In this document: piece after piece, positions 161 to 64,000 of the stretch
Position numbering within the stretch: the first letter of the stretch is position 1
Layout: every line of letters starts with the position of its first letter
DNA from: the human T2T-CHM13v2.0 reference genome, Homo sapiens
Assembly (NCBI RefSeq): GCF_009914755.1
Contig: NC_060942.1
DNA: 64,000 nt
Direction: 5' to 3' (one strand)
Translations under genes and position numbers: made by a program
The notes under the pieces: generated by a model
Told to the model about the DNA's origin: nothing
Seen by the model: the letters and a program-made list of their open reading frames with translations, nothing else
Databases searched by the model: none

Positions 161-1320
<1,160 letters not shown>

Positions 1321-33200: not shown

Positions 33201-36200
33201 ATACTCCATCGTGGACTGTTTCCAGTTCAAAGGTACTTTCTACAGCATAATAATAACACTAGCAAAGAGCTAGTACAAGGATGGTTTTGTGCTCAACTGA
33301 AATCCAGCTGAATACAGAATTGTATAGGAAACAGTTAATATGGTGATAGAATAGAAACAGTAGCAAATGTGAACTAAATCATGCTATGAATGCCTAAACT
33401 ACGCTGTAACTTTTGGAACAATGATAATACCACTTTATTGCGTTTTGAAGTATGAATATTTTAGTGTATGTACTCTAGACCTCAAACCCTATAAAGAGTC
33501 TCAAAGAAGTTGGCTGGATAAAGCCTGCTGTGGACGTCTTTATATTCAAAGATTGATGATGCATTTCGAATATGTGTCCACACCGAATCTCATGTTGAGT
33601 TATATTTCCTAATGTGGAAGGTGGATCCTGCTATAAGGTGATTGAATTATGAAGGCAAATTTCTCATGAATGGTTCAGCACCATCCCCTTGTACCATCCT
33701 CACAATAATGAGTGACTTCTCATGAGATCTGGTCACTGAAAACTCTATGTCACATCCCTACTCTCTGCGTTTTCCCCTTGCCATGTGAGACAACTGATTC
33801 TTTCTTTGCCTTCCATGATTATTGAAAGATTTCTGAGGCCTCCTAGAAGCAGAAGCACTGTGCTTAGAACCATGGGACAATTAAACCTCTTTTTCAAAAT
33901 AAATCATACAGAAAATGGCAAATGAAGACTGGAGCTTGCTATAAAGATACCTGGAAATGTGGAAGCAGCTTTGGAACCAGGTAATGGATGGAGGTTGGAA
34001 GAATTTGGAGGGCTCAAAAGAAGATAGATAGATGAGAAAACTTTTGGACCATCCTAGAGACTGGTTCAATGGTTGTGACAAAAATCCTGACAGAAACATG
34101 GACAGTGAAGGCCAGGCTGAAGAGGTCTCAGAGAGAAATAAGAAGCTTTCTGGAAAATGTCTTCCTTTTGGATATGGAAAGCTTACACAATGCCTGTACC
34201 ATCATTGTACCTTAGAAGCAGTGAACTTGCTTTTTATTTCAGAGACTCATAGGCAAAAGAGACTGTAGCCTTGATCCAGATGACACTTTGGACTTCGTAA
34301 CTTTGAGTTAATGCTGAAGTGAGTTAAGACTTTGGGAGACTGCTGGCAAGGCATGATTGTATTTTGCAATGTGAGAAGGATATGAGATTCGTGGGGTCAG
34401 GGACAGAATAATATGGCTTTTCTCTATGTCCCTACCAAAACTCATGTGGAATTATATTCTGTAATGTCAGAGGCGGGGCCTAGGTGGAAAAAGATTTAGT
34501 CATAAAATGGTGCAGGTAGATCCTTCACGAATGATAAAGGACCATCACCTTGATAAAGGACCATCACCTCCTGATAGTGAGTGAGTTCTCATGAGATCTG
34601 ATTCCTTAACAGGCTGTGGAACCTCTTTCCTCACTCTGTCTTCCTCCTGCTCCTGCTTTAGGAGGCATCTCATTTTCCCTTGGCTTTCTGATATAATGAG
34701 GAGGCTTCCTGATTCCTCCCAGAAACAGAAGACACTATGCTTTCTTCACAGCTTGCAGAACCATGAGTCAATTACACCTCTTTTATTTACAATAATACAG
34801 AAAATTAGAACTGCAGAGAAGAGCTGTGAAATGTCTTCAAGGCCTTTTTCCCTTTGTGTTGGCTATTAGCACAGGGCTTCTTTATATGCAAATTTCTGAA
34901 ATCTTCTTGAATTTTTCCCCTTAAATGGGATTTTTGTTATTGCTACATAGCCAACCTGCTAAATAAATATCTGAAAAAGTAAAAGCAGGCTCAGTAGTGG
35001 GTAGCAAACAAAGATTGGAAGGGTTTGGAGGGATAAGAGTATGAGAGGGAGTGGGAGGGAGTGATTTAATCATGGATGGGTGGGGGTGGATGTGGAAGGG
35101 AAAAAGGGGTGGTAGGGTGGGAGGGAGTAGACTGGCTGTAGGGTGGTGGGAGGGTGGTGGGTAGTAGGAAGGGGGAGTAGCCTGCTGCAGAGCAGAGCCT
35201 CATGGAAAACCCCTACTAGGGCAGTGCACCTGTGGCTTTGCAGGTTTGAGACCCATGGCTGCTCTCATGGACTGGACTAGTGTTGAGTGACTGTAGATTT
35301 TCCACACAGAGAGTGCAAGCTGTTGGTGGGTCTATGAGTCTGGGGTCTGGAGGGTGGTAGTCCCCTGTGTGGGGGCTCCAAGTCCATATTTTCCTAAAGC
35401 ACTGCCCTAGTAGAGGTTTTCCAAGAACTCTGCGTCTGCAGCAGGCTTCTGCCTGGAAACATTGGGAGGTGGGGGTGGGAGGCAGATCCTTCACCAATGG
35501 TTAGGCAGCATCTTCTTGGCGCTGTCCTCATGATAGTGTGTTCTCATGAGATCTGGTTATATAACAGGGTGTGGCACCTCTTTCCTCTCTCAGTCTTGCT
35601 TCTACTCCTGCCATATGAAACATCTCCTTGCCCCTTGGCCTTCTGGTATGATTGGGAGGCTTCCTGATCCTCCCAGAAGCAGAAGCCACTATGCTTCCTT
35701 TACAGCCTGCTGAACCATAAGCCAATTAAACCTCTTTTCTTTATGATCATACAGAAAATTAGTGCTGTGAAGTGGAGCCATGAAATGCCTTCAAGGCCCT
35801 TTCCCCTTTTTCTTGGCAACCAGCACTCAGCTTCTTTTCATGGAAATATCTGAAGCCTTTGTGAATTTTCCCCCTGAAAATGGACTTTTCTCTTTTACCA
35901 CATTGCCAGGCTGTGATAAAGATTGCTGACAATGTAGAACCAGGTTCAGAAGTGGGTAAAGGACAGAGGTAGGAAGACTTGGGAAAGCTTAGAAGACAAC
36001 AAGATGAGGAAAATATTGGACCACTATAGAGAACTGTTAAATACTTGTGATCAGAAGGCTGAGAAAAGGGTAAACACTGAAGTCCAGACTTAGAAGTTCT
36101 CAGATGAAAATGAGGAATTTCCTATAAACAGGGGCCAAGATTACATTTGATTGGCCTTAGCAAAGGACGTGGCAGCACAGGGACCCTGCCCTGGAGATCT

Positions 36201-39200
36201 GTGAAACTATGAACTTGGGGGTGATGATTTAGGATGTATCTGGTGAAATGAACATCTAGGCAGCATAGCACAAGAGGTGTCCTGTCTGCATTGAACAGCC
36301 TGTGTTCTTATGTGTGACCTAAGAAATAACTTCAAGTTGGAACTTCAAGTGGAGATCTAAAATTTGGAAAATTTGGAGCCTGGCCAAGTGGTCAAAAAGA
36401 AAAGCCGATTTTGAGGGGGAAAATTCAAGAAGGCTTAGGTTATTTCCATAAAAAGGAACGCAGTGCAAACAGCCAAGACAGTGGGAAACTGGCCTTGAAA
36501 GTATTTTAGAGACCTCTGCAGCAGCCCTTGCTGTCACAGACCATGGGGTCTAGGAGAGAAGAATGGTTTCCTGGGCCAGTCCCATGGTCCTGCTGCTGTG
36601 CTCAACCACAGGACACTGCTGCCTGCATCCCTGCAGCTCCAGCACCAGCCGTGGCTGAAAGATGCACAGGTACAGCTTGGGTCATTGCTTCAGAGGTGGC
36701 TCAAAGCCTTGATGGTTTCCACATAGTGTTAAGCCAGTAGGTGCACAGAGAAAGAGACTAGAGGCTTGGGAGCTCCTGTCTAGACTCCAGAAGATGTACA
36801 GAAAATCCTGGATGTCCAGGAAGAAGCTTTTCCAAGAGGCATAACCTCATGGGGAACCTCTACTAGGGGAGCAAAGAAGAGACTTATAGGGTTAAAGCCC
36901 CCACAGAGGGAGGCATCATTCTCCAAACCCCAGATTCATAGACCCACAAACAGCTTGCACCCTCAGTGTGGAAAAGCTATGGGCACTCAACAAGAGCCCT
37001 GTCCATGAGAGACAGCCGTGGAGGCTGAACGCTGCCAAGCCACAGGTCAGATCTGCCCAAGGCCTTGGGAGCTCAGCCCTCACAGCCCTGTGCCATGGAT
37101 GTGGGACAAGGATTCAAAAACGATGATTTTGGAGCTGTAGGATTGAGTCACTGGTCTGCTGGGTTTTGGACATTTATGTATCCTATGAGTCCCATCTGTG
37201 TTTTGGGCTTCTTTCTAGCAATTTTTTTTTCTGATGCCTGGGAATGCTTACCCATTGCCTGTACAATCATTTACCTTGGAAGTAGTAAACGTGCTTTATA
37301 ACTCAGTGGCTCATGGGCAGAAGGGAGTGTAGACTTGTCTCAGATGAGACTCTGGGCTTTGGGCATTTGAGCAAATGCTGGAATGAGTTAAGATTTGAGA
37401 GACTCTAGGGAAGGCATCATTGCATTTTGCAATGTGAGAAAGACATGAACATTGGGGGACCAGGGACAGAATAATATGTTTTGGCTCTCTGTCTCTACCA
37501 AAGCTCATGTGGAATGTTAATGGGAAATGTTAAATGTGGGGGCTGGTGGAAGGTGATTTAATCATGATGGAGAGAGGAGGTTGGATGGTGGGGGTCGGGG
37601 AGGGTTGGGGGTGATTGGGTGGTGAGGAGGGTTGGAGGGGATTGTGGTGGGGTTGGGGGTATAAGGCGGGCTGGGGTGCATCCTTCACAAACGGTTAAAC
37701 ACCATCTCCTTAATGCCGTCCTTCTGATAGTGAGTTCTCTTCATGATTTTGGAGCTGTGAGATTGAACGAACACTGACCTGTGGGATTTTGGATGTCCAT
37801 TGGGCCTGTGGTCCCATTTGTGTTATTTTTCTTGGAAATTTCTTCCCTTTGGATTGAGAAAGGTTACCCAATACGTGTACCATCATTGTACCTTGAAAGA
37901 AACGAACACCCTTTTAACTTCAGGGACTCATAGGCAGAAGAGACTGTAGTCTTGTCTCAGATGAGACTTTGAACTTTTTACATTTGAGTTAATGCGGGAA
38001 TGAGTTAAGGCTTTTGGAAACTTTGAAAAGGCACAATTGTATTTTCTTCTGTGAGAAGGATATGAGATTTGGGGGGGTCAAGGTCAGCATAATATGATTT
38101 GGCTGTGTGTCCCTGGAAAATCTCATGTGGAATTGTAATCCCAAATGTTGGAGGTGGGGCCTGGTGGGAGATTATTTAATCATGGGTGGGAGGGTTAGGG
38201 GTGGAAGAAAAAAGGGGTGGGTAGGGTGGGGAAGAGTAGGCTGGCTGTAGGGTGGTGGGAGGGTGGTGGGTAGTAGGAAGGGGGAGTAGCCTGCTGCAGA
38301 GGCAGCGGCTCATGGAAAACCTCTACCAGGGCAGTGCGCCTGTGGCTTTGCAGGCTTTAGCCCCCATGGCTGCTCTCATGGGCTGGGCTGCTGTTGAGTG
38401 CCTATCACTTTTCCATACTGAGGGTGTGAACTTTTGGTAGGTCTATGAATCAGGGATCTAGAGGATGGTGGCCTCCTGCATAGTCACTCAAAGCCCTTAT
38501 TTTCCTTGTGCACTGCCATAGTACAGGATTTCCAAGAGCCTCTGCCTCTGCAGCAGGTTTCTGTCTGGAAAGGTAGGGGGTGGAGATGTGTTGGGGGGCG
38601 GATCCTTCACCAATGGTTAAGCACCATCTTCTTGATGCTGACCTAGTGATAGTGAGTTCTCATGAGATCTGGTTATAGGATGGTGTGGCACCTCTTTCCT
38701 CTCTCAGCCTTGCTCCTACTCCTGCTTAATGAAACATTTCATTGCTGTTTTCCTACTGGTATGACATTTCCCCATCGTCTTGGCTATTAGCACTCACTTC
38801 TTTTTAATGCAAATATCTGAAGGCTTCTTGAAGTTTCCCTCTGAAAATGGACTTCTTTTTCTTCTGCATTGCCAGGCTGCAACAAAGATAGCTGAAAATG
38901 TAAAGCAGGTTCAGAAGTGGGTAACAGCCAGAGGTTGGAGAGTCTGGAGATCTTGAAAGAAGACAGGAAGATGAAGGAAAGTTTGGACCATTGTAGGCAC
39001 TTGTCAAATAGTTGTGATTAAAAGGCTGGCAGAAGGATGGAAGTGAAGGCCAGGCTTACAAGGTCTCAGATGAAAATGAGGAACTTACTGGGAACGGGAG
39101 CCAAGGTTACCTTTTGTTTTGCTGTAGCGAAGAACATGGCTGCAGGACGACCTTGCCCTCAAGATCTGTGAAACTTTGAACTAAAGGGTGACGATTTAGT

Positions 39201-42200
39201 GCATATCTGGTGGAATGAACTTCTAGGCAGCATAGCACAAGGGGGGGTCCTGTCTGCATCAAACAGCCTGTGCTCTTACGTGTGACCGAGGTTATGTGTG
39301 ACCGAGGAAATGACCTCAAGTTGGAACTTATATTTAAATGACAAGCAGAGCTCAAAAGTTTGGAACATCTGCAACCTGGCCAAGTGGTCAAAAAGAAAAG
39401 CTGATTTTCAGGGGGAAAACTCATGAAGGCTCCAGAAACTTGCATAAAATGGAGGCCAGTGCTAATAGCCAAGACAATGGGGGAAAAAGCCTTGGAGACA
39501 TTTCAGAGATGTCTGCAGCAGCCCTTGCTGTCAGGCCCTGGGTCCTAGGAGAGAAGAATGGTTTCTTGGGCGAGCCCCATGACCCTGCTGCTGTTTGCAG
39601 CCTCAGGACACTGCTGCCTGCATCCCTGCAGCCCCAGCTCCTGCTCTGACCTTGGCTGAAAGATGCACAGGTACAGATTGCATCACTGCTTCAGAGGGAA
39701 CAGGCTATAAGGCTTCATGGCTTTCACATAGTGTTAAGCCCGCGAGCGCACAGAGCACTAGCCCAGAGGCTTCTGAGCCTTCATATAGATTTCGGAAGAC
39801 GTATGAAAATGCCTGGGTGTCCAGACAGAAGGCTGCCAAAAAGCAGAGCCTCCTGGGAAACCTCTACTAGGGCAGTGCAGAAGGAAAATATGGGGTTGGA
39901 GCCCCACAATGGAGGCCAGCATCATGCAGACCCCAGATTCATAGACCCACCAAGAACTTTGTACCCTCTGTGGGTAAAAACTACAGGCAGTCAACACCAG
40001 CACAGCCCATGAGGGCAGCTGTGGGGATGGAACACTGCGAAGCCACAGGTAGAGAAATGCCCAAGGCCTTGGGAACCCCGCCCTCATACCCTTGTGTCCT
40101 GGATGTGGGACAAGGATTAAAAAAGGATGACTTTGGAGCTGTAGGTTTGAATAACTGGCCGGCTGGGTTTTAGATTTTCATGGGACCTGTAAGTCCCTTT
40201 TCTGTTTTGTTCTTCTCTCTGGCAAAAATCTTCCTTTTGGTTGGGAATTCTTACTCAATGTCTGGACAATCATACCTTGGAAGTAGTTAACTTGCTTTGT
40301 ATTTCAGAGGCTCAGGAGCAGAAGGGACTGCATCTTTGTCTCAGATGTGACTTTGGCCTTCAGACATTTGAGTAAATGCTGGAATGAGTTAAGACCTTGG
40401 GGTTCTTAGCCAAGATGATGGGGAAAAGTCATTGAAGGCATTTCATAGCTTCACTTCACAATACTAATTTTCTATATGATCATAACAAAAAGGGGTTTAA
40501 TGGGCTCATGGTTCTGCAGGCTGTAAAAAAAAAAGCACAATGGCTTGGGGAATGGTAAGTAAGGCATCATTGTATTTTGCAAAGTGAGAAGGACATGAGA
40601 TTTGTGGGGCAGGGACAGAATAATAAGATTTGGCTGTGTGTCCCTATGGAAACTCATGTGGAATTGTAATCAGAAATGTTTAAATTGGGGCCAGGTGGAA
40701 GGTGATTTAATCATGGAGGGCAGTTGGTATTGGAAGGTGGGGATTGGGGAAAATGGGTGGATTATGGTGGGGGTGAGTGGTGAAACGTGGGAGTGGGTGG
40801 AGGATCCTTCACAAATGGTTAAACACCATCTCCTTAATTCTTTCTTCATGGAGGTGAGTTCTCGTGATGTTTTGGAGCCGTGAAATTGAATGGGGATAGT
40901 GGCCTCCTGGGTTTTGGACTTGCATTGGCCCTGTCATCCCATTTGTGTTATTTTCCTGGCAGACCTCTCCCCTTTGGATTGAGAAAACTTACCCAATGCC
41001 TATACCATCTTTGTACCTTGAAAGAAAAGAAATCCCTTTTAAATTCAGGAACTTATAGGCAAAAGGGACTGTGGCCTTTTCTCAGGTGAGACATTGAACT
41101 TTTTACATTTGAGTTAATGCTGAAATGACTTAAGACTTTCCGCAACTTTTGAAAAGGCCTGATTGTATTTTACTGTGTGAGAAGGATACGATATTTGGGA
41201 GATCAGGGTCAGAATAATATGGTTTAGCTGTGTGTCCCTACCTAAACTCACATGTAATTGTAATCCCGAATGTTGCAGGTGGGGCCTGGTGGGAGGTGAT
41301 TTATTCATGGATGGGAGAGGGGTGGGATTGGACGTAAAAACAGGTGGGTAAAGTGTTGAGGAGTAGGCTGGCTGTAGGGTGGTGTATAGCAGGAGGGGAG
41401 TAGCCTGCCGCAGAGGCAGAGGCTCATAGAAAAACTCTACTGATGCAGTGCACCTGTGGCTTTGCAGGGTTCAGCACATGTAGGTGCTCTCATGGGCTGG
41501 GCTGGTGTTAAGTGCCTGTAGCTTTTCCGTACTTGTGGTGTGAGCTGTTGATGGGTCTATGGGTCTGGTGTCTGGAGGATGGTGGTATTCTCCATGGGGG
41601 CTCCAAGCCCGTAGTTTTCCTCTAAACAGCCATAGTAGAGGTTTTCCAAGAGGATCTGCCTCTGCCTCAGGCTTCTGCTTGGAGACAGTGGGTGGTGGAT
41701 ATGAGGTGGTGGGCGGATCCTTCACCAACAGTGAAGCACCATCTTCTTGATGCTGATCTCCTGATACTGAGCTCTCATGAGATCTAGTTGTATAACAGGA
41801 TGTTGCACCTCTTTCCTCTCTCTGTCTTGCTTCTACTCCTGCCATATGAAACATTTCATTGCCGCTTGGCCTTCTGGTATGACTGGGAGGCTTCCTGAGT
41901 CCTCCTACAAGCAGAAACCACTATGCTTTCTTTACAGCCTGAAGAACTGTGAGTCAACTAAACCTCTTTTCTTTATGTACATACAGAAAATTAATGCTGC
42001 GAAGTGAAGCTATGAAATGTCTTCTAGGCCTTCCCCCAATCTCTTGGCTATTAGCACTGAGCTTTTTCAATGCAGATATTGGAGGCCTTCTTGATGATTC
42101 CCCCTGATAATGGAATTTTCTTCTTTTACCACATTGCCAGGCTGCGAAAAAGATAGCTGACAGTGTAGAAGCAGGTTCTGAATTAGGTAATGGCCAGAGG

Positions 42201-45200
42201 TTATAGAGTTCGGAGGGCTTGGAAGAAGACAGGAAGATGAGGGAAACTTTGGACCATTGCAGAGACTTGTTAAATAGTTGTGATTGAAAGGCTGACAGAA
42301 GGATGGACAGTGAAGGCCAGGCTTATAAGATCTCAGGTGAAAATGAAGGACTTACTGGGAAGAGGAGCCAAGGTTTTTTTGTTTTGCCTTAGCAAAGTAA
42401 TTGACTACACAGTGACCCTTCCCGGGAGATCTGTGAAACTGAACTTGAGGGTGATGATTTAGAGTGTATCTGGTGGAATGAACTTCTAAGCAACAATGCT
42501 CAAGAGTTCTCTTACCTACATTGAACAGCCTGTGCACCTATCTGTGATCAAAGAAATGACTATAAGTTGGAACTTATATTTAAATGAGAAGCAGAGCTTA
42601 AACATATGGAAAATTTGTAATCTGCACAAGTGGTCAAAAAGAAAAGCTGATTTTCAGGGGGAAAGTCAAGAAGGCTTCAGATATTTGCATAAAAAGGAGC
42701 CTAGTGCTAATAATTCAAGACAATGGGAAAAAGGCCTTGAAGGCATTTCAGAGACCTTTGTAACAGCCCTTGCTGTCACTGGCCCTGGGGCCTAGGAGAA
42801 AAGAATAGTTTCCTGGCCCAGCCCCATGGCTCCACTGCTGTGTGCAGCCTCAGGACACTGCTGCCTGCATCCCTGCAGCTCCATCTCCAGCTCCAGCCAT
42901 GGATGAAAGGTGCACAGATCCAGCTTGCCTCACTGCTTCAGAGGATGCAAGCTCATAGACGTGGTGGCCTCCACTTGGTATTAAGCCAGCAGGTGCATAA
43001 AGCAAGTGCTAGAAGCTTCAGAGCCTTCACCTAGACTCCAGAGGATGTATCAGACAGCCAGAGTGTCCAGCCAAAAGCTTTTCCAAGAGGCAGAGCCTCA
43101 TGGTAAACCTCTACTCAGGCAGTACACAGGAGAGTATAGGGTTGGAGTCCCCATACAGGGAGGCACCATTTTCCATTCCCCAGTTTCATAGACCCACCAG
43201 CTGCTTGCACCGTTAGTGTTGAAAAGCTACAGGCACTCAACACCAGCCTAGTCAATGAGGGCAGCTGTAGGTGAAAGATTCTGCAATGCCACAGGTGCAG
43301 AGCTGCCCAAGGCCTTGGGATCCCAGCTGTCACACCACCCTGTGCTCTGGATGTGGACATAGATTCCAAAAAGATGATTTGGTGGTGTATGATGGATGAC
43401 TGGCCTGCTGGGCTTTTGACTTGCAGGGAGTTTCTAAATCCCATCTGTATTTTGTGCTTCTTTCTAGCAAATGTCTTCTTTTTGGCCGTAAATGCTTACC
43501 CAATGCCTGTACAATCATTGTACCTTGGAAGTAGTTAATTTGCTGTGTATTTCAGAGTCTCAGGGTAGAAGGGACTGCAGCCTTGTCTCAGAAGAGACTT
43601 TGGGCTTTGGATATTTGAGTAAATGCTGGAATGAGTTAAGATTTGGGGACTCTAGGGAATGCATCATTGCATTTTGCAGTATGAAAAACACATGAGATTT
43701 GGGGGACCAGGGACAGAATAATATGTTTTGGCTGTGTGTCTCTACCAAAACTCATGTGGGATTTTAATGTGAAACGTTAAAGGTGGGGGCTGGTGGAAGG
43801 TGATTTAATCATGGTGGAGCTTGGAGGGTGGATGCTGGGGGTGGTGGGGAGGGTTGGGGCTACAGGCGGGTGAGGAGGGTTGGGGGATTGTGGTGCAGTT
43901 GGGGCTGAAAGCCAGGGGTGGGGGGTGGATCCTTCACAAATGGACATTTGAGTAAATGCTGGAATGAGTTCAGACATTGGGGGACTATAAGAATGCATCA
44001 TTGTATTTTGCAGTATAAGACGGACATGAGATTGGGGACCAAGGGGAGAATAATATGATTTGGCTCTGTGTCCCTACCAAAACTCATGTGGAATTGTAAT
44101 GGGGAATGTTAAATTGGGGCTTGGTAGAAGGTGATTTAATCATGGTAGAGATTGGGGGTTGGAAGGTGGATGTGGGAGAATGGGGGTGCAAGGTATGAGT
44201 GGGGGCGAAACGTGGGGATGGGTGGCAGATCCTTCACAAATGTTTAAATACTATCTCCTTAATGCAGTCTGTGCGATAGTGAGTTCTCATGATAAATGAA
44301 TGCTGTCCTGCTGAGTTTTGGACTCGGATTTGGCCTGTGTCCCAATGTGTTATTTTTCAGGGAAAATCTTCCCTTTGGATTGAGAAAGCTTACCCAGTGC
44401 CTGTGCCATCGTTGTAACTGGAAAGAAAAGAATTGTCTTTTACATTCAGGGACTCATAGGCAGAAGGGATTCCAACCTTGTCTTGGATGAGACTTGAACT
44501 TACTACATTTGAATTACTGCTGGAATGAGTTAAGACTTTTGGAAACTTTTGAAAAGGTATGTTTGTATTTTTCTGTGTGAGAAGGACATGAGATTTGGGG
44601 GTGTCAGGGTGAGAACAATATGGTTTGACTCTGTTTCCCTACAAAAACTCAAGGGGTATTGTATTCCTGACTGTTGTAGGTGGGGCCTGGTGGGAGGAGA
44701 AATTAATTGGTAGAGGTGGAAGTGAAAACAAGTGGGTAGGGTGAGGAGGAGTAGGCTGGCAGTAGGGTGGTGAGAGGGTGGTGGGCAGTAGGAAGAGGGA
44801 GTAGCCTGCTGCAGAGGCAGAGCCTCATGGAAAACCTCTACCAGGGCAGTGCACCTGTGGCTTTGCAGGGTGTAGCCCCCATGGCTGCCCTCGTGGGCTG
44901 GGCTGGTGTTGAGTGCCTGTAGCTTTTCCATACTGAGAATGCAAGCTGTTGGTGGGTCTATGAATCTGGGGTCTGGAGGATGGTAACCTCCTGCTTTGGG
45001 CTTCCAAGCCCATATATTTTTTCTGCACTGCCGTAGTAGAGGTTTTCCAAGAGGCTCTGCCTCTGCCTGAGGCTTCTGCCTGGAAACAGTGGGTTGTGGG
45101 GGTGGTAGGGGGCAGATCTTTCACCAATGGTTAAGCAACATCTTCTTGATGCTGACGTTGTAATACGGAGTTCTCAGGAAATCTGTTTGTATAACAGGGT

Positions 45201-51088: not shown

Positions 51089-54000
51089 AAAGGGTTGGTT
51101 AGGGTGGGGAGGAGTAGGCTGGCAGTAGAATGGTGGGCAGGTGGAGGGTAGTAGGAAGGGGGAGTAGCCTGCTGCAGAGGCACAGACACATGGAAAACCT
51201 CTACTAGGGCACCGCACATGTGGCTTTGCAGGGTTGAGCCCCTGCAGCTGCTTTCATGGGCTGGGTTGGTGTTCAGGTTTGGAAAAGCCTGTAGTTTTTC
51301 CACAGAGGGTGTGAGCTGTTGGTGGGTCTATGAATCTAGGGTCTGGAGGTTGGTGGCCATCTGCATGGGGGCTTCAAGCCCATATTTTCCTTCCACACTT
51401 CCCTGGTAGAGGTTTTCCAAGAGGCTCTGCCTGTCCAGCAGGCTTCTGTTTGGAAACAGTGGGAGTTGGGGGTGGGTGGTTTTTCCTTCCTCAATGTTTA
51501 AGCACCATCTTCATGATGCTGGCCTTGTGATAGTGAGTTCTCAGGAGATCTGGTTGTATAATAGGGTGTGGTCTTCTCTCCTCTCTCGGTCTTGTGCCTA
51601 CTCCTGCCACATGAATCATCTCATTGCCCCTGGACATTCTGATATGATTGGGAGGCTTCCTGAGTCCTCCCAGATTCAGAAGCCATTATGTTTCCTTATG
51701 GCCTGCAGAACCATGAGCCAATTAAACCTCTTTTCTTTATGATCATAGAGAAAACTAGTGGTGCAAAGTGGAACCATTAAATGTCAATGTCTTGGCAATC
51801 AGCACTCAGCTTCTTTTCATTCAAGTATGTGAAGGCTTCATGAATTTTCCCCCTGAAAATGGACTTGTTTTCCTTTACCACATTGCCAGGCTGTGGCAAA
51901 GATAGTGATAATGTAGAAGCAGGTTCAAAAGGGAGTAGCGGACAGAGGTCGGGAGAGTTTGGAGGGCTTCAAAGACAAGAAAATGAAAGAAAGTTTGGAT
52001 CTTTGTAAAGAATTGTTAAACACTTGTGATCAGAAGGCTCACAGGAAAATGGTCAGTGAAAGCCCAACTTAGAATGTCTCAGATGAAAATGAAGCACTTA
52101 CTGGGAACAGAAGTCAAAGTTACTTTTGTTTTCTTAGCAAAGAACGTGACTGCACGGTGACCTCGCCGTGGAGATCTATGAAACTTTGAACTTGAGGGTG
52201 ATGATTTACTGAGTATCTGGTGGAATGAACTGGGCAGCAAAGCTCAAGAGGTGTCCTGTCTCCATCGAACAGCCTGTGCTCTTATGTGTGATGGAGAAAA
52301 TGACCTCTGGATGAGACTTACAGTAAATGAGTCCCGACTCTTACATTACATGAGAAACAGAACTCAAAAGTTTGGAAAATTTGTAGCCTGGCCATGTGGT
52401 CAAAAAGAAAAGCTGATTTTCAGGGGGAAAATTGAGGAAGGCTTCAGAAACTTGCATGAAAAGGAGCCCAGTGCTATTAGACAAGACAATAGGGAAAAGG
52501 CCTTGAAGGAATTTCAGAGACCTTTCCAGCAGCCCTTGCTGTTAGAGGCCCTGGGGCCTAGGAGAGAAGAATGGTTTCCTGGGCGAGTTCCATGAACCCC
52601 CTCTGTGTGCAGCCTCAGGACGCTGCTGCCTGCATCCCTGCAGCTCCAGCTCCAGCTCCAGCTCCAGCTCCAGCCATGACTGAAAGATGCACAGGTACAA
52701 CTTGGGTCACTGATACAGAGGGTGCCGGCTAGAAGCCTTGGTAATTTCCTCATAGTGTTAAGCCACTGGTGGACGGAGCATGAGACTAGAGGCTTGGGAA
52801 CCTCTCTACAGATTTTGGAAGATGTATGGAAATGCATGGGTGTCCAGGCAAAAGCATCCCAAAAAGGCAGAGCATTATATGAAACTTCTACTAGGGCAGT
52901 GCAGAAGGAAAACATGGGGTTGGAGCCTCCACACTGGAGGCAACCATCATGCAGACCCCAGATTCATAGACCCCCAACAACTTGTATCCTTAGTGGGGAA
53001 AAGTCACAGGCACTCAACACCAGCCGAGCCCATGAGGGCACCCATGGGCATAAAACCTGCAATGCCGCAGGTGCCAAGCTGCCCAAGGCCTTGTGAGCCC
53101 AGCCCTCACACCACTGTGCCCTGGATGTGGGACAGGGTTTCAAAAAGGGTGATTTTGGAGCAGTAGGATTGAATGAATGGCCTTCTGGGTTTGGAGTTTC
53201 ATGGGGCCGATAAGTCCTGTCTGTGTTTTATTTTTTTCTGGCAAAATTTTTCCTTTTGGCCGGGAATGCTTACCCAGTGCCTCTACAAACATTGTACCTT
53301 GGAAGTAGTTAACTTGCTTTATATTTCAGAGGCTCATGGGCCTAAGCAACTGTAGCCTTGTGCCAGATGAGACTTTAAGCTTTGAACATTTGAATAAATG
53401 CTGTAATGATATAAGATTTTGGGGGATTGTAGGGAAGACATCACTATATTTTGCAATGTGAGAAGGACATGAGATTTGGGGAGCCAGGGACAGAATAATA
53501 AAATTCAGCTCTGTGTCTCTACCAAAACTCATGTGGAATTGTCATCGGAATGTTAAAGGTGGGGCCTGGTGGAAGGTGATTTAATCACGGTGGAGAGTGG
53601 AGGTTGGAAGATGGGGTGTAGGGAGAATGGGGGATTTATGGTGCAGGTGAGGAGTGAAAAATGGGAGTTGGGGGGTGGATGCTTCACAAATGATTAAACA
53701 CTCTCCTAATTGCTGTCCTTGTGATAGTGAGTTCTCTTCATGATTTTGGAGCTGTAAGATTGAATGGATACTGGCCTTCTGGGTTTTGGAGTTGTATTGG
53801 GTCTGTGGTCCCACTTGTGTTTCCTTCCTGGGAAATTTCTTCCCTTTGGATTGAAAGTGCTTACCCAAAGCCTCTACCATTATTGTACCTTGAAAGAAAA
53901 GAACATCCTTTTAAATTCAGAGACTCATAGGGAAAACGTACTGTAGAACTGTCTCAGATGAGATGTTGACTTTTTTATATTTGAGTTGATGTTGGAATGA

Positions 54001-56409
54001 TTTAAGACTTTTGGAAACTTATGAAAAGGCATGAATATATTTTGATCTGTGAGAAGGACATGAGACTGTGGGGATCAGGGTCAGAATAATATGATTTGGC
54101 TGTGTTTCTTTACCAAAACTCATGTGAATTGTAATCCTTAATGTTGGAGGTGGGGCCTGGCTGGAGGTGATTTAATCATGGATGGGAGGGGGCTGGGGGT
54201 GGAAGGAAAAGGGGGTGGGTAGGTTGTTAGTAGGGTGGTGAGAGGGTGGTGGGTAGCAGGAAGGGGGAGTAGCCTGCTGCAGAGGCAGAGGCTCAAGGAA
54301 AGTCTCTACTAGGACAGTGCACCTGTGGCTTTGCAGGTTGTGGCCCCCATGGCTGCTCTCTTGGGCTGGGCTGGTGTGGAGTGCTTGTAGCTGTTCCATG
54401 CAGAGAGTGCAAGCTGTTGGTGGGTCTATGAATCTGCAGTCTGGAGGATGGTGGCCTCCTGTGTGTGGGCTCCAAGCCCATATTTTCCTTCTGCACTGCA
54501 CTCGTGGAGGTTCTCCAAGAGGTTCTGCCTCTGCAGGAGGCTACTGACTGGAAACAGTAGGTGGTGGTGTGGGTGGATCCTTCACCATTGGTTAGTCTTC
54601 CTGATGCTGATCTCCTGATAGTGAGTTCTCATGAGATCTGGTTGTATAACCTGGTGTGGCACCTCTTTCCTCTCTGTGTCTTCTTCCTACTGCTGCCATA
54701 TGGAACATCTCATTGTCACTTGGCCTTTTGCTATATTGGGAGGCTCCCTGAGTCCTCCCAGAAGCAGAAACCACTTGCTGCCTTTACAGCCTGCTAAACC
54801 ATGAGGCAATTAAACCTCTTTTAAAAATAATATTACAGAAAATTTGTACTGTAGAGTGGAGCTATGAAATGCCATCAAGGTTTTTTCCTCTTTTTTTTTT
54901 TTTTTTTACTATTAGCATTTGGCTTCTTTTATATGGAAATATCTGAAGCCTTCTTGAATTTTCCACCTGAAAATGGACTTTTCTTCTTTTACCACATTGC
55001 CAGGCTGCCACAACGGTAGCTGAAAATGTAGAAGCAGATTCAGAAGTGGGTAACGACCGGAGGCTGCACAGTTTGGGGGGCTTGGAAGAAGACAGAAAGA
55101 TGAGGGAAAATTTGGACTCTTGTAGAGACGTGTTAAATTAAAAGGGTGAGAATAGAGACTTGTTACATAGCCATAATTAAAAGAGTGACTGAAGGATGGA
55201 CAGTGAAGGCCAGGCTTAGAAGGTCTCAGATGAAAATGAGCAACTTACTGGGAACAGGAGTCAAGGTTACTTTTGTTTTGCCTTAGCAAAGAACTTGGCT
55301 GGATGGTGTCCCTGCCCTGGAGACCTCTGAAACTTTGAACTTGAGTGTGATGATTTAGGGTATATCTGGTGAAATGAAGTAGGCAGCAAAGCTCAAGAGG
55401 TGTCTTGTCTGTTTTGAACAGCCTGTGGTCTTCTCTGTGACTGAATAAATGACCTCAAATTGAAAGTTATATTTAAATGAGAAGCAGGGCTTAAAAGTTT
55501 GGAAAATTTGCAGCCTGGCCAAGTGGTCAAAAAGAAAAGCTGATTTTCAGTGGGAAAATTCAAGAAGGCTTCAGAAATTTTCATAAAATGGAGCCCAGTG
55601 CTAATAGCTAAGACAATGTTTAAAAGGCCTTGAAGCCATTTCAGAGACCTTTGCAGCAGAGCTTGCTGTCAAGGCCCTGAGTTCTAGGACCGAAGAATGT
55701 TTTTCTCGGTGAGTCCCATGGTCACGTTGCTGTTTCCATCCTCAGGACACTGCTGCCTGCATCCCTGAAGCTCCAGCTCCAGCTCCAGCCATGGCTGAAA
55801 GATGCACAGGTACAGCTTGCATCACTGCTTCAGGGGTGCAAGCTTCAAACCTTGGTGGCTTCCACATAGTACTAAGCCAGCAGGTGCACAGAGCACAAAA
55901 CTAGAGGCTTGGGAGCCTTTGTCTAGATGCCAGAGTATGTACGGGAAAACCTGAGTGTTGAGGCAGAAGCTTTTCCAAGAGGCAGAGCCTCATGGGAAAA
56001 TTTTACTAGAGCAGTACAGAAGGAACATATAGGGTTGCAGCCCCCAAACAGGAATGCACTATTTTCCAGACCCCAGATTCATAGACCCGCCAACTGCTGG
56101 CATCCTGAGTGTGGAAAAGCCAAAGGCACTCAACACCAGCCCAGCCCATGAGGGCACCTGTGGGGGATAGACCCTTCACAGCCACAGATCCTGAGCTGCC
56201 CAAGGCCTTGGGAGCTCAGCCATCCACCCCTGTGCTCCAGATGTGGGATATAGATTCAGAAAAGATGACTTGGGAGCTGTAGGAATCAATGACTGGCTTG
56301 CTGGGTTTTTGACTTGCATGGGGTGTGAAAGTCCCATCTGTGTTTTGTGTTTCTTTCTGGCAAATTTTTTCCCTTTGGGTGGGAATGCTTACCCAACTCC
56401 TGTGTAATC

Positions 56410-59400
56410 ATTGCACCTTGGAAGTAGTAAACTTGCTTTATATACAATTCAGTGGCTCATGGTCAGAAGGGACTGTAGACTTGTCTCAGATGAGACTCTG
56501 GGCTTTGAGCATTTGAGTAAATGCTGGAATGAGTTAAGATATGAGAGACTCTAGGGAAGGCATCATTGCATTTTGCAATGTGAGAAAGACATGAACATCG
56601 GGGGACCAGGGACAGAATAATATGTTTTGGCTCTCTGTCTCTACCAAAGCTCATGTGGAATGTTAATGGGAAATGTTAAAGGCGGGGGCTCGTGGAAGGT
56701 GATTTAATCATGATGGAGAGAGGAGGTTGGATGGTTGGGGGTTGGGGAGGGTTGGGGGTGATTGGGTGGTGAGGAGGGTTGGAGGGGATTGTGGTGGGGT
56801 TGGGGAGTGTTGGGGGTGATTGGGTGGTGAGGAGGGTTGGAGGAGATTGTGGTGCAGTTGGGGGTGTAAGGCAGGGGTGGGGGTGCATCCTTCACAAGTG
56901 GTTAAACATCATCTCCTTAATGCTGTCCTTCTGATAGTGAGTTCTCTTCATGATTTTGGAGCTGTGAGATTGAATGAACACTGACCTGTGGGATTCTGGA
57001 TGTCTATTGGGCCTGTGGTCCCATTTGTGTTATTGTTCTTGGAAATTTCTTCCCTTTGGATTGAGAAAGCTTACCCAATACGTGTACCATCATTGTACCT
57101 TGAAAGAAACGAACACCCTTTTAACTTCAGGGACTCATAGGCAGAAGAGACTGTAGCCTTGTCTCAGATGAGACTTTCAACTTTTTACATTTGAGTTAAT
57201 GTGGGAATGAGTTAAGGCTTTTGGAAACTTTGAAAAGGCACGATTGTATTTTCTTCTGTGAGAAGGATATGACATTTGGGGGGGGTCAAGGTTCGCATAA
57301 TAAAATTTGGCTGTGTGCCCCTGGAAAATCTCATGTGGAATTGTAATCCCAAATGTTGGAGGTGGGGCCTGGTGGGAGATTATTTAATCATGGGTGGGAG
57401 GGTTAGGGGTGGAAGAAAAAAGGGGTGGGTAGGGTGGGGAAGAGTAGGCTGGCTGTAGGGTGGTGGGAGGGTGGTGGGTAGTAGGAAGGGGGAGTAGCCT
57501 GCTGCAGAGGCAGCGGCTCATGGAAAACCTCTACCAGGGCAGTGCGCCTGTGGCTTTGCAGGCTTTAGCCCCCATGGCTGCTCTCATGGGCTGGGCTGCT
57601 GTTGAGTGCCTATCACTTTTCCATACTGAGGGTGTGAACTTTTGGTAGGTCTATGAATCCGGGGTCTAGAGGAAGGTGGCCTCCTGCATAGTCACTCAAA
57701 GCCCTTATTTTCCGTCTGCACTGCCATAGTACAGGATTTCCAAGAGCCTCTGCCTCTGCAGCAGGCTTATGTTTGGAATGGTAGGGGTTGGAGCTGTGCT
57801 GGGGGGGCGAATCCTTTACCAATGGTTAAGCACCATCTTCTTGATACTGACGTGTAGTGATAGTGAGTTCTCATGAGATCTGGTTATAGGACGGTGTGGC
57901 ACCTCTTTCCTCTCTCAGCCTTGCTGCTACTCCTGCTGTATGAAACATTTCATTGCTGTTTTCCTACTGGTATGATTGGGAGGCTTCCTGAGTCCTCCCA
58001 GAAGCAGAAGCCACTGTGCTTTCTTTACAGCCTGCAGAACCATGAGCCAATTAAACCCCTTTTCATTATGATCATACAGAAAATAAAGTACTGCGAAGTG
58101 GAGCTATGAAATATCTTCAATGACATTTCCCCATCGTCTTGGCTATTAACATTGGACTTCTTTTAATGCAAATATCTGAAGGCTTCTTGAAGTTTCCCCC
58201 TGAAAATGGACTTCTTTTTCTTCTGCATTGCCAGGCTGCAACAAAGATAGCTGAAAATGTAAAGCAGGTTCAGAAGTGGGTAACAGCCAGAGGTTGGAGA
58301 GTTTGGAGATCTTGAAAGAAGACAGGAAGATGAAGGAAAGTTTGGACCATTGTGGGCGCTTGTTAAATAGTTGTGATTAAAAGGGTGAAAGAAGGATGGA
58401 AGTGAAGGCCAGGCTTACAAGGTCTCAGATGAAAATGAGGAACTTACTGGGAATGGGAGCCAAGGATATGTTTTGTTTTGCTGTAGCAAAGAACATGGCT
58501 GCAGGGCGACCTTGCCCTCAAGATCTGCGAAACTTTGAACTCGAGGGTGATGATTTAGTGCATATCTGGTGGAATGAACTTCTAGGCAGCATAGCACAAG
58601 GGGGGGTCCTGTCTGCATCAAACGGCCTGTGCTCTCATGTGTGACTGAGGTTATGTGTGACTGAGGAAATGACCTCAAGTTGGAACTTATCTTTAAATGA
58701 CAAGCAGAGCTCAGAAGTTTGGAACATCTGTAGCCTGGCCAAGTGGTCAAAAAGAAAAGCTGATATTCAGGGGGAAAATTCATGAAGGCTCCAGAAACTT
58801 GCATAAAATGGAGGCCAGTGCTAATAGCCAAGACAATGGGGGAAAAAGCCTTGGAGGCATTTCAGAGATGTCTGCAGCAGCACTTGCTGTCAGGCCCTGG
58901 GTCCTAGGAGAGAAGAATGGTTTCCTGGGCAAGCCCCAAGACCCTGCTGCTGTGTGCATCCCCAGGACACTGCTGCCTGCATCCCAGCAGCCCCAGCTCC
59001 TGCTCCGACCTTGGCTGAAAGATGCACAGGTACAGATTGCATCACTGCTTCAGAGGGTACAGGCTATAAGGCTTCATGTCTTCCACATAGTGTTAAGCCA
59101 GTGAATGCACAGAGCACTAGTCCAGAGGCTTTGGAGCCTTCATATGGATTTCGGAAGATGTATGAAAATGCCCGGGTGTCCAGACAGAAGGCTGCCAAAA
59201 AGCAGAGCCTCCTGGGAAACCTCTACTAGGGCAATGCAGAAGGAAAATATGGGGTTGGAGCCCCCACACTGGATGCCAGCATCATGCAGACCCCAGATTT
59301 ATAGACCCACCAAGAACTATGTACCCTCTGTGGGTAAAAACTACAGGCAGTCAACACCAGCACAGCCCATGAGGGCAGCTGTGGGGACTGAACACTGCAA

Positions 59401-62400
59401 AGCCACAGGTAGAGAAATGCCCAAGGCCTTGGGAACCCCGCCCTCATACCCTTGTGTCCTGGATGTCGAACAAGGATTAAAAAAGGATGACTTTGGAGCT
59501 GTAGGTTTGAATAACTGGCCGGCTGGGTTTTGGATTTTCATGGGACCTGTAAGTCCCGTTTGTGTTTTGTTCTTCTCTCGGCAAAAATCTTCCTTTTGGT
59601 TGGGAATTCTTACTCAATGTCTGGACAATCATACCTTGGAAGTAGTTAACTTGCTTTGTATATCAGAGGCTCAGGAGCAGAAGGGACTGCATCTTTGTCT
59701 CAGATGAGACTTTGGGCTCCAGACATTTAAGTGAATGCTGGAATGAGTTACGGCCTTGGGGGTCTTAGCCAAGACGATTGGGAAAAGTCATTGAAGGCAT
59801 TTCATAGCTTCACTTCACAGTACTAATTTTCTGTATGATCATAACAAAAAGGGGTTTGATTGGCTCATGGTTCTGCAGGCTGTAAAAAAAAAGCATAGTG
59901 GTTGATGAATAGTAAGTAAGGCATCATTGTATTTTGCAAAGTGAGAAGGACATGAGATTTGTGGGGCAGGGACAGAATAATAAGATTTGGCTGTGTGTCC
60001 CTGTGGAAACTCATGTGGCATTGTAATCAGAAATGTTAAAAGTGGGACCAGGTGGAAGGTGATTTAATCGTGGAGGGCACTGGGTGTTGGAAAGTGGGGA
60101 TTTTGGAGAATGGGTGGTTTATGGTGGGGGTGAGGGGTGAAAAGTGGGGGTGGGGGGAGGATCCCTCACAGATAGTTAAACACCATCTCCTTAATCCTTT
60201 CCTCATGATGGTGAGTTCTCGTGATGATTTTGGAGCCATGAGAGTGAATGGATACTGGCCTCCTGGGTTTTGGACTTGCATTGGCCCTGTGATCCCATTT
60301 GTGTTGTTTTCCTGGCAAACATCTCACCTTTGGATTGAGAAAGCTTACACAATGCCTGTACCGTCATTGTACCTTGAAAGAAAAGAACTCCCTTTTAAAT
60401 TCAGGAACTTATAGGCAAAAGGAACTGTAGCCTTTTCTCACGTGAGATGTTGAACTTTTTACATTTGAATTAATGCTGAAATGACTTAAGACTTTCAGCA
60501 GCTTTTGCAAAGGCATGACTGTATTTTACTCTGTGAGAAGGATGTGATATTCGGGGGATCAGGGTCAGAATAATATGGTTTAGCTGTGTGTCCCTACCTA
60601 AACTCACATGTAATTGTAATCCCGAATGTTGCAGGTGGGGCGTGGTGGGAGGTGATTTATTCATGGATGGGAGACGGGTGGGGTTGGAATTAAAAACTGG
60701 TGGGTAAGGTGGGGAGGGTAAGCTGGCTGTAGGGTGGCGTGTAGCAGAAGGGGAGTAGCATGCCGCAGAGGCAGAGGCTCATGGAAAAACTCTACTGAGG
60801 CAGTGCACCTGTGGCTTTGCAGGGTTTAGCACCTGTAGCTGCTCTCATGAGCTGGGCTGATGTTGAGTGCCTGTAGCTTTTCCATATTGGGGGTGTGAGC
60901 TGTTGGTGGGTCTATGACTCTTGGGTCTGGAGGATGGTGGCATGGGGGCTCCAAGCCCACATTTTCCTGCTGCACTGTCCTAGTAGAGGTTTTCCAAGAG
61001 GATCTGCCTCTGCCTCAGGCTTCTGCTTGGAAACAGTGGGTGGTGGATATGGGATAGTGGGCGGATCCTTCACCAACAGTGAAGCACCATCTTCTTGATG
61101 CTGATCTCCTGATACTGAGCTCTCATGAGATCTAGTTGTATAACAGGATGTCGCACCTCTTTCCTCTCTCTGTCTTGCTTCTACTCCTGCCATATGAAAC
61201 ATTTCACTGCTGCTTGGCCTTCTGGTATAATTGGGAGGCTTCCTGAGTCCTCCTATAAGCAAAAACCACTATGCTTTCTTTACAGCCTGAAGAACTGTGA
61301 GTCAATTACACCTCTTTTCTTTATGTAGATACAGAAAATTAATGTTGTGAAGTAAAGCTATGAAATGAATTCTAGGCCTTTCCCCCAATCTCTTGGCTAT
61401 TAGCACTGAGCTTTTTTCAATGCAGATATTGGAGGCCATCTTGATGTTTCCCCCTGATAATGGACTTTTCTTCTTTTACCACATTGCCAGGCTGCAACAA
61501 AGATAGCTGACAGTGTAGAAGCAGATTCCAAATTGGGTAATGGCCAGAGGTTCGAGAGTTTGGAGAGCTTGGAAGAAGACAGGAAGATGAGGGAAAGTTT
61601 GGACCGTTGCAGAGACTTGTTAAATAGTTGTGATTAAAAGGCTGACAGAAGGATGGACAGTGAAGGCCAGGTTTGTAAGGTCTCAGATGAAAATGAGGAA
61701 CTTACTGGGAAGAGGAGCCAAGGTTTTTTTGTTTTGCCTTAGCAAAGTAATTGGCTACACAGTGACCCTTCCCAGGAGATCTGTGAAACTGAACTTGAGG
61801 ATGATGATTTAGGGTGTATCTGGTGGAATGAACTTCTAAGCAGCAAACCTCAAGAGCTGTGCTGCCTACATCGAACAGCCTGTGCTCCTATGTGTGATCA
61901 AAGAAATGACCATAAGTTGGAACTTATATTTAAATGAGAAGCAGAGATTCAACATTTGGGAAATTTGTAATCTGGTCAAAAAGAAAAGCTGATTTTCAGG
62001 GGAAAATCAAGAAGGCCTCGGATATTTGCATAAAAAGGATCCCAGTGCTAATGATTCAAAACAATGGGAAAAAGGCCTTGAAGGCATTTCAGAGACCTTT
62101 GTAGAAGACCTTGTTGTCAAGGGCCCTAGGGCTTAGGAGAAAAGAATAGTTTCCTGGCCCAGCCCCATGGCTCCACTGCTGTGTACAGCCTCAGGACACT
62201 GCTGCCTGCATCCCTGCAGCTCCATCTCCAGCTCCAGCTATGGATGAAAGATGCACAGGTACAGCTTGTGTCACTGCTTCAGAGGATGCAAGCTCCAAGC
62301 CTTGGTGGCTTCCACATAGTGTCAAGCCAGCAGGTGCATAAAGCAGGGACTAGAAGCTTCAGAGCCTTCATCTAGACTGCAGAGGATATATTGGAAAGCC

Positions 62401-64000
62401 TGAGTGTCCAGCCAGAAGCTTTTCCAAGAGGCAGAGCCTCATGGTAAAACTCTACTGGGGCAGTACAGAAGAATATAGGGTTGGAGTCCCCATACAGGGA
62501 GGCACCATTTTCCAGACCCCAGTTTCATAGACCCACCAACTGCTTGCACCCTCAGTGTTGAAAAGCTACAGGCATTCAACACCAGGCTAGCCAATGAGGG
62601 CAGCTGTGGGGGAAAGATTCTGCAATGCCACAGGGGCAGAGCTGCCCAAGGCCTTGGGATCCCAGCTGTCACACCACCCTGTGCTCTGGATGTGGACATA
62701 GATTCCAAAAAGATGATTTGGAGCTATATGATGGAATGACTGGCCTGCTGGGTGTTTGACTTGCAGGGAGTTTCTAAGTCCCATCTGTGTTTTGTGCTTC
62801 TTTCTGGCAAATTTCTTCTTTTTGGCTGGGAATGCTTACCCAATACCTGTACAACCATTGTACCTTGGAAGTGGTTAACTTGCTTTGTATTTCAGAGGCT
62901 CGGGGCAAAAGATATGGCAGCCTTGTCTCAGAAGAGACTTTGGGCTTTGGATATTTGAGTAAATGCTGGGATGAGTTAAGACTTGGGGGACTGTAGGGAA
63001 GGCATCATTGCATTTTGCAATGTGAGAAAGACATGAACTTTGGGGGACCAGGGACAGAATAATATGTTTTGGCTCTGTGTCTCTACCAAAACTCATGTGG
63101 AATTTTAATGGGAAATGCTAAAGGTGGGGGCTGGTGGAAGGTGATTTAATCATGGTGGAGAGTGGAGGTTGGATGGTTGGGAGGGTGGGGAGTGTTGGGG
63201 GGATTGTGGGGTGGGGTGGGTTAGGGGGATTGTGGTGGTGGGGAGGTGGGGGATTGGGGGGTGGGAAGGCTTGGGGCAATTGTGGTGGGGTTGGGGGTGA
63301 AAGGCAGGGGTGGGGGCCGATCCTTCACAAATGGACATTTGAGTAAATGCTGGAATGAGTTCAGACATTGGGGGACTGTAGAGAATGCATCATTGTATTT
63401 TGCAGTATGAGAAGGATATGAGATTGGGGGGCCAAAGGGAGAATAATATGATTTGGCTCTGTGTCCCTACCAAAACACATGTGGGATTGTAATGGGGAAT
63501 GTTAAATGTGGGGCTTGGTAGAAGGTGATTTAATCATGGTAGAGAATGAGGATTGGAAGGCAGGTGTGGGAGAATGGAGGTTCATGGTGTGGGTGAGGGT
63601 GAAACATGGGGATGGGTGGTAGATCCTTCACAAATGGTTAAATACTATCTCCTTAATGCAGTCTGTGTGATAGTGAGTTCTCATGATAAATGAATGCTGT
63701 CCTGCTGGGTTTTGGACTCGGATTGGGCCTGTGTCCCATTTGTGTTATTTTTCTGGGAAAATCTTCCCTTTGGTTTGAGAAAGCTTACCCAGTGCCTGTG
63801 CCATCATTGTAACTTGAAAGAAAAGAATTGTCTTTTACATTCAGGAACTCATAGGCAGAAGAGATTGCAGCCTTCTCTTGGTTGAGACTTGAATTTACTA
63901 CATTTGAGTTACTGCTGGAGTGAGTTAAGACATTTTGAAACTTTTGAAAATGCATGTTTGTATTTTTTTGTGTGAGAAGGACATGAGATGTGGGGGTGTC
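56410..64000 (+). repeat. Higher-order duplicate of ~37270-44610
   Basis: Near-identical ORF pairs 38252/57460, 39595/58954, 41114/60470, 42280/61630, 44296/63694; offsets 19.2-19.4 kb. Confidence 0.92.

What the first reader, a model, noticed from the sequence alone, without database searches (positions are those of the whole stretch)
33555..64000. A >30 kb macrosatellite built from one rearranged MaLR (MST-type) retroelement
Seen: nine marker copies spaced 3109, 3114, 3401, 2877, 3486 (includes the LTR insertion), 3105, 3225 and 3261 bp. Monomers share the same odd architecture: LTR 3' end shortened to ...attaaacctcttttctttatgatcatacag (relative to the consensus I recall), a duplicated internal-end/LTR-start block, G-rich tracts and two inversions. 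Inference: these are not independent insertions but DNA-level amplification of one scrambled element into a satellite. Repeat maskers would probably report it only as many separate MST fragments.
Basis: partly seen in the sequence, partly recalled or inferred. Interest (0 to 1): 0.7.

Follow-up and report, generated by a model that had tools for sequence, protein, structure and literature searches.

The report
Known human LTR-array megasatellite, 18p11
This is a real but already described human repeat: an 80-kb head-to-tail run of 25 copies of a ~3.2-kb block of dead retrotransposon pieces, published in 2008 as the chromosome 18 'LTR array', which likely grew and shrank by misaligned recombination.

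Summary
The nine marker copies and all eight spacings are reproduced exactly. The array runs from window 33555 to about 113054 (79.5 kb, 25 marker sites). Warburton et al. 2008 (PMC2588610) list an 'LTR array' at 18p11.21 of 79.5 kb and 25 units, made of MaLR (MSTA/THE1) fragments, with a 6-monomer higher-order repeat (HOR), one LTR6A insertion per HOR and one monomer deleted. Their two probe motifs hit here, and size, unit number, HOR, a 549-bp solo LTR once per HOR and the deletion are all found. Details I did not find in the papers searched: the HOR likely arose by crossover between monomers 1 and 7 of a 7-unit ancestor preserved on C2; 24 of 26 arrays share the SNX18-pseudogene flank (2 unchecked); array-less paralogues look like collapsed arrays; a C9 array holds four 99.8-100% identical 6.2-kb dimers. 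No sign of function. Low interest.

The parts
33555..64000 (+). LTR-array megasatellite, window part; continues to about 113054 in window coordinates (79.5 kb, 25 marker sites)
   Evidence: size and unit number equal Table 3 of PMC2588610
33555..35172 (+). Unamplified lead segment: two LTR-like copies (about 33575-33916 and 34427-34805, 65% alike) around a short internal piece; shared by the other arrays checked
35173..38281 (+). Monomer m01 (unique first unit; its last ~1 kb is 97-100% like class A)
38282..41395 (+). Monomer m02, HOR class B (lacks the LTR-end motif)
41396..44796 (+). Monomer m03, HOR class C
44797..47673 (+). Monomer m04, HOR class D (about 200-bp deletion shared with m21)
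47674..51159 (+). Monomer m05, HOR class E, carries the solo-LTR insertion
50540..51088 (-). 549-bp solo LTR of a dispersed family, TG...CA ends, apparent 7-bp flanking duplication; the LTR6A of Warburton et al. by position and periodicity (name from the paper; strand inferred)
   Evidence: name
51160..54264 (+). Monomer m06, HOR class F
54265..57489 (+). Monomer m07, HOR class A: hybrid with 5' part like the last full monomer (m24) and 3' part like m01; switch near 56473-56480
57490..60750 (+). Monomer m08, HOR class B (94% to m02)
60751..64000 (+). Monomer m09, HOR class C (92% to m03), cut by the window end (runs to 64202)
31000..33554 (+). 5' flank with the SNX18 pseudogene (31600-33182 in the hub annotation), duplicated together with the arrays
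   Evidence: gene name from the hub's annotation

Best explanation
This is the 18p11.21 member of the human 'LTR array' megasatellite family (Warburton et al. 2008): 25 tandem units of MaLR-derived DNA in a 6-unit higher-order repeat, likely built by unequal crossing-over and likely spread by segmental duplication, and probably without a function of its own. Steps: (1) MaLR pieces next to an SNX18 pseudogene were rearranged once into a ~3.2-kb block with two inversions and a duplicated segment (shared architecture shown; number of source elements not shown). (2) The block was amplified to about seven units, now ~80% alike (shown; an age of roughly 45-55 My is inferred from K2P 0.23 and a recalled rate). 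(3) The array was copied with its flanks to many pericentromeric and acrocentric sites (shared flanks shown; process inferred). (4) In the C13/C18/C21 lineage a solo LTR inserted once, and a crossover between units 1 and 7 likely created the 6-unit repeat (hybrid class A shown). (5) Later crossovers removed one unit from one HOR on C18 (D/E hybrid shown), probably collapsed whole arrays elsewhere, and recently expanded a dimer on C9.
For: Paper: 18p11.21, 79.5 kb, 25 units, 6-monomer HOR, LTR6A per HOR, one monomer deleted. Here: 79,500 bp and 25 sites; both probe motifs hit (8 and 9 matches in the window, 0 expected); six monomer classes with support 1.0, ~80% between and 91-97% within classes; four LTR copies on C18 and the same insertion site in 3 C21 and 2 C13 copies; m16 switches from class D to E between 85565 and 85608 (179:1 then 2:55 informative sites); class A units switch from m24-like to m01-like (m07 329:44 then 11:152); the C2 array reads m01, B, C, D, short E, F, m24 at 87-89%; 76 exact marker hits in 26 clusters on 11 contigs. 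An LTR 20-mer of the monomer has 3158 exact hits genome-wide, 0 in the control. Longest stop-free frame 200 codons, CpG o/e 0.13.
Against: No liftover was possible: identity with the hg18 entry rests on band, size, unit count, structure and probe motifs. The paper says the second HOR lost the monomer; from the window's left it is the third (second from the right). Family names (MSTA, THE1, LTR6A) were not tested against a repeat library. The 7-bp duplication at the insertion is longer than I recall for ERV1-type LTRs and was not checked at dispersed copies. The C9:33.6M array fits the 7-unit order only in part (4 of 6 units clearly assigned). m04/m21 (97%) and m03/m20 (94%) are closer than neighbouring HOR copies, so a simple serial duplication does not explain the tree.
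Confidence: 0.96

Rival explanations
1. An insertion hotspot: many independent MST elements landed side by side.
For: The pieces belong to a high-copy dispersed family (3158 exact hits of one 20-mer) and units of different classes are only ~80% alike.
Against: Same orientation in 25 of 25 markers, same inversions and duplication in 24 of 24 units, almost no unique DNA between units, 6-unit periodicity at 91-97%.
Confidence: 0.01
2. The scrambled monomer was amplified through an RNA or rolling-circle step (retrotransposition read-through, circle re-insertion), not by unequal crossing-over.
For: The six classes branch almost star-like at ~80%, which fits a quick early burst of any kind; the unit starts and ends within LTR-like DNA.
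Against: All datable later events are hybrids with sharp switch points in register (m16, class A, array-less LTR). All arrays checked share both flanks, so no unit moved alone.
Confidence: 0.1
3. The array is kept for a function, for example as a cluster of binding sites for DUX-type homeodomain factors or as a heterochromatin or G-quadruplex element.
For: 36 copies of TGATTTAATCA in 79.5 kb against 0 in 44.5 kb of flank; 36 G-quadruplex-like motifs on the + strand against 6 in 39.5 kb of flank. DUX4 binds MaLR LTRs, MSTA among them (PMC3836709, passages).
Against: The DUX4 motif as I recall it (TAAYYYAATCA) occurs only twice; the counts reflect copying of one ancestral site; no RefSeq functional element is annotated (hub table); array-less paralogues exist and acrocentric arrays vary between people.
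Confidence: 0.06
4. Array-less paralogues are the pre-amplification state rather than collapsed arrays.
For: A lead-like 5' half and terminal-like 3' half of their single LTR is expected under either direction; the tree root is only a midpoint root.
Against: They lack the ~1.6 kb internal segment that every monomer has, and the most divergent flank (C8, 85-87%) carries an array, which nests the array-less clade among arrayed loci (support 0.88).
Confidence: 0.2

Closest known systems
Human 'LTR array' megasatellite, 18p11.21 member (Warburton et al. 2008, PMC2588610)
   Same: Band, 79.5 kb, 25 units, probe motifs, 6-monomer HOR, one solo-LTR insertion per HOR, one monomer lost in one HOR, sister arrays on 13 and 21, about 25 arrays on 11 chromosomes, set in segmental duplications.
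   Different: Nothing in kind. Mean unit here is ~3.2 kb (paper: '~3.5 kb'). The 7-unit ancestor, the hybrid class A unit, the shared SNX18-pseudogene flank, array-less paralogues and the four-copy 6.2-kb dimer on C9 are not in the passages I read.
T2T 'composite' repeats such as ACRO_Comp, LSAU/D4Z4, TELO_Comp (Hoyt et al. preprint 10.1101/2021.07.12.451456)
   Same: Tandem multi-kilobase units made of transposon fragments, attributed to unequal crossing-over; some spread over acrocentric and pericentromeric sites.
   Different: The main text has 0 hits for MaLR or MST; whether the array is one of the 19 composites in its Table S2 could not be seen. Units here are old (~80% alike) and of one LTR class, with no gene.
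Mouse TR-MTA tandem repeats (PMC3218096)
   Same: Tandem arrays formed from a MaLR element including its internal part.
   Different: Mouse MTA family, low unit diversity, arrays up to about 10 kb, no HOR reported in the passages read; presumably an independent origin.
Dispersed MaLR (MSTA/THE1) elements
   Same: Source of the sequence (3158 dispersed hits of one monomer 20-mer).
   Different: Dispersed copies are single LTR-internal-LTR or solo LTR insertions (recalled); here the pieces are rearranged and copied in tandem at DNA level.

Membership tests
LTR array megasatellite (Warburton 2008) | Array at 18p11.21 of 79.5 kb with 25 units | tested here: met
   33555 to about 113054 = 79,500 bp, 25 marker sites; Table 3 gives 79.5 kb, 25 units
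LTR array megasatellite (Warburton 2008) | Conserved probe-primer sites in the units | tested here: met
   8 and 9 matches in the window at up to 2 mismatches, 0 by chance; 24 and 25 in the whole array at up to 3
LTR array megasatellite (Warburton 2008) | Higher-order repeat of six monomers | tested here: met
   Six classes, each with support 1.0, in period-6 order
LTR array megasatellite (Warburton 2008) | One full-length solo LTR per HOR, shared by chromosomes 13, 18 and 21 | tested here: met
   4 copies on C18, 3 on C21, 2 on C13 in arrays; same site in 8 of 8 copies compared, the ninth
LTR array megasatellite (Warburton 2008) | One monomer deleted from one HOR on chromosome 18 by unequal crossover | tested here: met
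   m13-m17 is a 5-unit HOR with D/E hybrid m16; third from the left, second from the right
LTR array megasatellite (Warburton 2008) | About 25 arrays on 11 chromosomes within segmental duplications | tested here: met
   76 exact hits in 26 clusters on 11 contigs; shared flank at 24 of 26, 2 unchecked
LTR array megasatellite (Warburton 2008) | Units consist of MSTA, THE1 and MSTA-int fragments in both orientations | tested here: inconclusive
   Inverted pieces shown and a dispersed high-copy LTR motif shown; subfamily names need RepeatMasker/Dfam, which is not available
LTR6A solo LTR | Match to the LTR6A family model | not testable with these tools
   Dispersed family with at least 31 other loci at 84-90% among 40 scored of 399 candidates, some in pairs 5-9 kb apart; name only
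T2T composite repeat track (Hoyt et al.) | Listed among the 19 annotated composites | tested here: inconclusive
   0 hits for MaLR or MST in the preprint's main text; its supplementary table could not be seen

The most novel reading that the evidence does not exclude
The family is not inert: it still changes in humans (four 99.8-100% identical 6.2-kb dimers on C9, whole-array collapses) and its 36 tandem TGATTTAATCA sites per chromosome 18 array make it a clustered DUX-type binding platform in early embryos or germline, with copy number varying between people.
Probability: 0.05. Interest if true: 0.55.

Novelty: already known. Interest (0 to 1): 0.14.

Why it matters
As a discovery it does not: the array, its HOR, the inserted LTR and the mechanism were published in 2008. 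It is a neglected family (three searches for 'LTR array(s)' with other terms returned only that paper or nothing). The extra detail found here gives a clean worked example of how a higher-order repeat is born from one crossover in an old diverged array, and offers markers for dating the SNX18-pseudogene/ANKRD20A duplications of pericentromeric and acrocentric regions. A functional role would matter more, but nothing here shows one.

Tried and rejected
Tandem Repeats Finder does not see the 3-kb unit (period limit 500). A whole-monomer genome search returned no scored result; short patterns were used instead. Independent insertions rejected (shared inversions, one orientation). A coding role rejected: longest stop-free frame 200 codons over both strands. 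Canonical DUX4 motif (recalled) rare: 2 in 79.5 kb. Mapping the monomer on an intact dispersed MST copy and checking the usual target-site duplication of the inserted LTR family were planned but not done, so 'one element', 'shortened LTR end' and the 7-bp duplication stay open; a recalled LTR/internal junction motif gave 234 exact dispersed hits, but those loci were not read. Literature: 'LTR arrays + Warburton + T2T' 0, 'composite repeat + T2T-CHM13 + MSTA + tandem' 0, 'SNX18 + ANKRD20A + segmental duplication' 0, 'LTR arrays + megasatellite' from 2009 on 0. Two reviews (PMC7767330, PMC5687341) showed no passage on this family under the terms searched; the centromere preprint had 0 hits for MaLR, MST or LTR. 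The control for the switch-point test (m10) showed no internal switch.

Full report
1. Observation. Self-comparison of the window shows a ladder of 76-84% matches from about 34150 to the end, and one much closer match, 38761-44605 against 58120-64000 at 91.6%, offset 19,359. A 21-base marker occurs nine times on the + strand (35173 ... The region has a strong G skew. Each of 24 complete monomers holds two inverted pairs (about 200-250 bp and 80-140 bp) and a directly duplicated block (69-79% alike); three of four class B units show a third, 89% inverted pair. The quoted LTR-end motif is in 22 of 24 monomers. I could not test 'shortened against the consensus'.

2. Extent. With the next 60 kb of the assembly, the array has 25 marker sites and ends near 113054 in window coordinates: 79,500 bp, chr18:14,417,555-14,497,054 by the hub's coordinates.

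3. Prior description. Warburton et al. [quoted passage not shown] Table 3 lists 18p11.21, 79.5 kb, 25 units. They report a 6-monomer HOR on 13, 18 and 21, an LTR6A in each HOR, one monomer deleted on 18, spread by segmental duplication, unequal crossing-over, and variable arrays on acrocentrics by FISH. Their probe motifs match this window 8 and 9 times. One motif has 76 exact hits in 26 clusters on 11 contigs and 243 hits at up to 2 mismatches, of which 100 were listed. I take contig numbers to follow chromosome numbers, which is given only for C18.

4. Higher-order structure. The 24 complete units form six classes (support 1.0). Of 276 pairs, 239 are at most 86% alike (mean 80.4%, K2P 0.23) and 37 are above (mean 92.8%, including hybrid units); pure within-class pairs are 91-97%. 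Order: m01, B C D E F, A B C D E F, A B C (D/E) F, A B C D E F, m24, partial. m16 is a D/E hybrid switching between 85565 and 85608 (179:1, then 2:55 informative sites), which is the deleted monomer of the paper; the control m10 shows no internal switch. A 549-bp element at 50540-51088 has TG...CA ends and an apparent 7-bp flanking duplication. It recurs once per HOR (4 on C18), at the same site in 3 C21 and 2 C13 copies (91.6-94.4% over the context), and belongs to a dispersed family (31 of the 40 scored hits lie outside these arrays, 84-90%; 399 candidates). The name LTR6A comes from the paper.

5. Origin of the HOR (inference from shown hybrids). Class A units are m24-like for ~2.2 kb and m01-like thereafter (m07: 329:44, then 11:152; m13 and m18 alike). 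The C2:95.3M array reads m01, B, C, D, short E, F, m24, each 87-89% to its chromosome 18 counterpart against ~78-80% for other classes. So a 7-unit array likely predates the dispersal, and one misaligned crossover between units 1 and 7 gave the 6-unit repeat. Against a simple story: the C9:33.6M array assigns clearly for only 4 of 6 units, and HOR1 and HOR4 are closer in classes C and D than neighbours are, which points to conversion or further exchanges.

6. Surroundings. The 660 bp before the array, the end of the SNX18 pseudogene, lies just upstream and in the right orientation at 20 of the 26 clusters among the 40 hits scored of 86 candidates; 4 more were confirmed from fetched sequence; 2 were not checked. 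Four other loci checked share the 3' flank. One small array (C2:130.48M) has a rearranged flank without the lead. Of 18 flank hits at 85-86%, I read 3; all three lack the array and join the lead at about 34704 straight to the 3' flank. Their LTR is mostly lead-like up to alignment column 212 (2 sites terminal-like) and terminal-like at 7 of 7 diagnostic sites from column 225 to 297. They lack the monomer's internal segment, and in a midpoint-rooted tree they nest among arrayed loci (support 0.88), so collapse by LTR-LTR recombination is likelier than a pre-amplification state, but not proven. The C9:77.8M array (45.9 kb, 15 markers) holds four 6,208-bp dimers at 99.8-100% identity; with one dimer it would be 27.3 kb, close to the paper's 27.2-kb, 9-unit chromosome 9 arrays. 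A recent expansion or polymorphism is inferred; collapse in the older assembly is also possible.

7. Function. No stop-free frame exceeds 200 codons and CpG is depleted as in the flanks (0.13 against 0.14 and 0.10). TGATTTAATCA occurs 36 times in the array and 0 times in 44.5 kb of flank, while the DUX4 motif as I recall it occurs twice. PMC3836709 (passages only) shows DUX4 binding MaLRs but says nothing on these arrays under the terms searched. Most likely the array is neutral pericentromeric DNA that turns over by recombination.

8. Ages are rough inferences with a recalled primate rate: units ~45-55 My, HOR ~10-30 My, C9 dimer within the human lineage.

9. Later annotation. The T2T repeat preprint and the centromere preprint (passages) have 0 main-text hits for MaLR or MST; their supplements could not be seen and may list the family.

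10. Verdict. Observation confirmed; amplification supported; 'one element' open; already known since 2008; interest 0.14.

Noticed in passing
window 1320-4037: A 37-bp GC-rich tandem repeat, 71.8 copies, 81% matches; it looks like an unusually long SVA-type VNTR (family label recalled).
   Followed up: no
L027-L031 (G000:C9:77,815,000-77,841,000): Four 6,208-bp two-monomer repeats at 99.8-100% identity inside a sister LTR array: a very young higher-order repeat in an old array.
   Followed up: partly
L015 697-1854, L016, L033: Array-less paralogues: SNX18-pseudogene flank and lead joined straight to the array's 3' flank through a hybrid LTR.
   Followed up: yes
L015 3068-6975: A 48-bp satellite (81.6 copies) follows the array-less locus; the 48-bp period equals that of CER in Table 1 of PMC2588610, identity not tested.
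   Followed up: no
window 50533-50539 and 51089-51095: The solo LTR has an apparent 7-bp flanking duplication, longer than I recall for its class; not checked at dispersed copies.
   Followed up: partly
window 29889-30195 and just after the array end (L005): A degenerate 14-15-bp GGTCAGT-type repeat lies upstream of the SNX18 pseudogene and seems to recur in the array's 3' flank, so the array may sit between two copies of one minisatellite-like tract.
   Followed up: no
window about 32270-32425: A 158-bp piece of the SNX18-pseudogene flank is inverted on chromosome 18 relative to six paralogous loci.
   Followed up: no
L032 (G000:C2:130.48M): A two-marker array with a 1907-bp unit and a rearranged 5' flank; three similar pairs lie at C2:130.88M, 131.11M and 131.72M.
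   Followed up: partly
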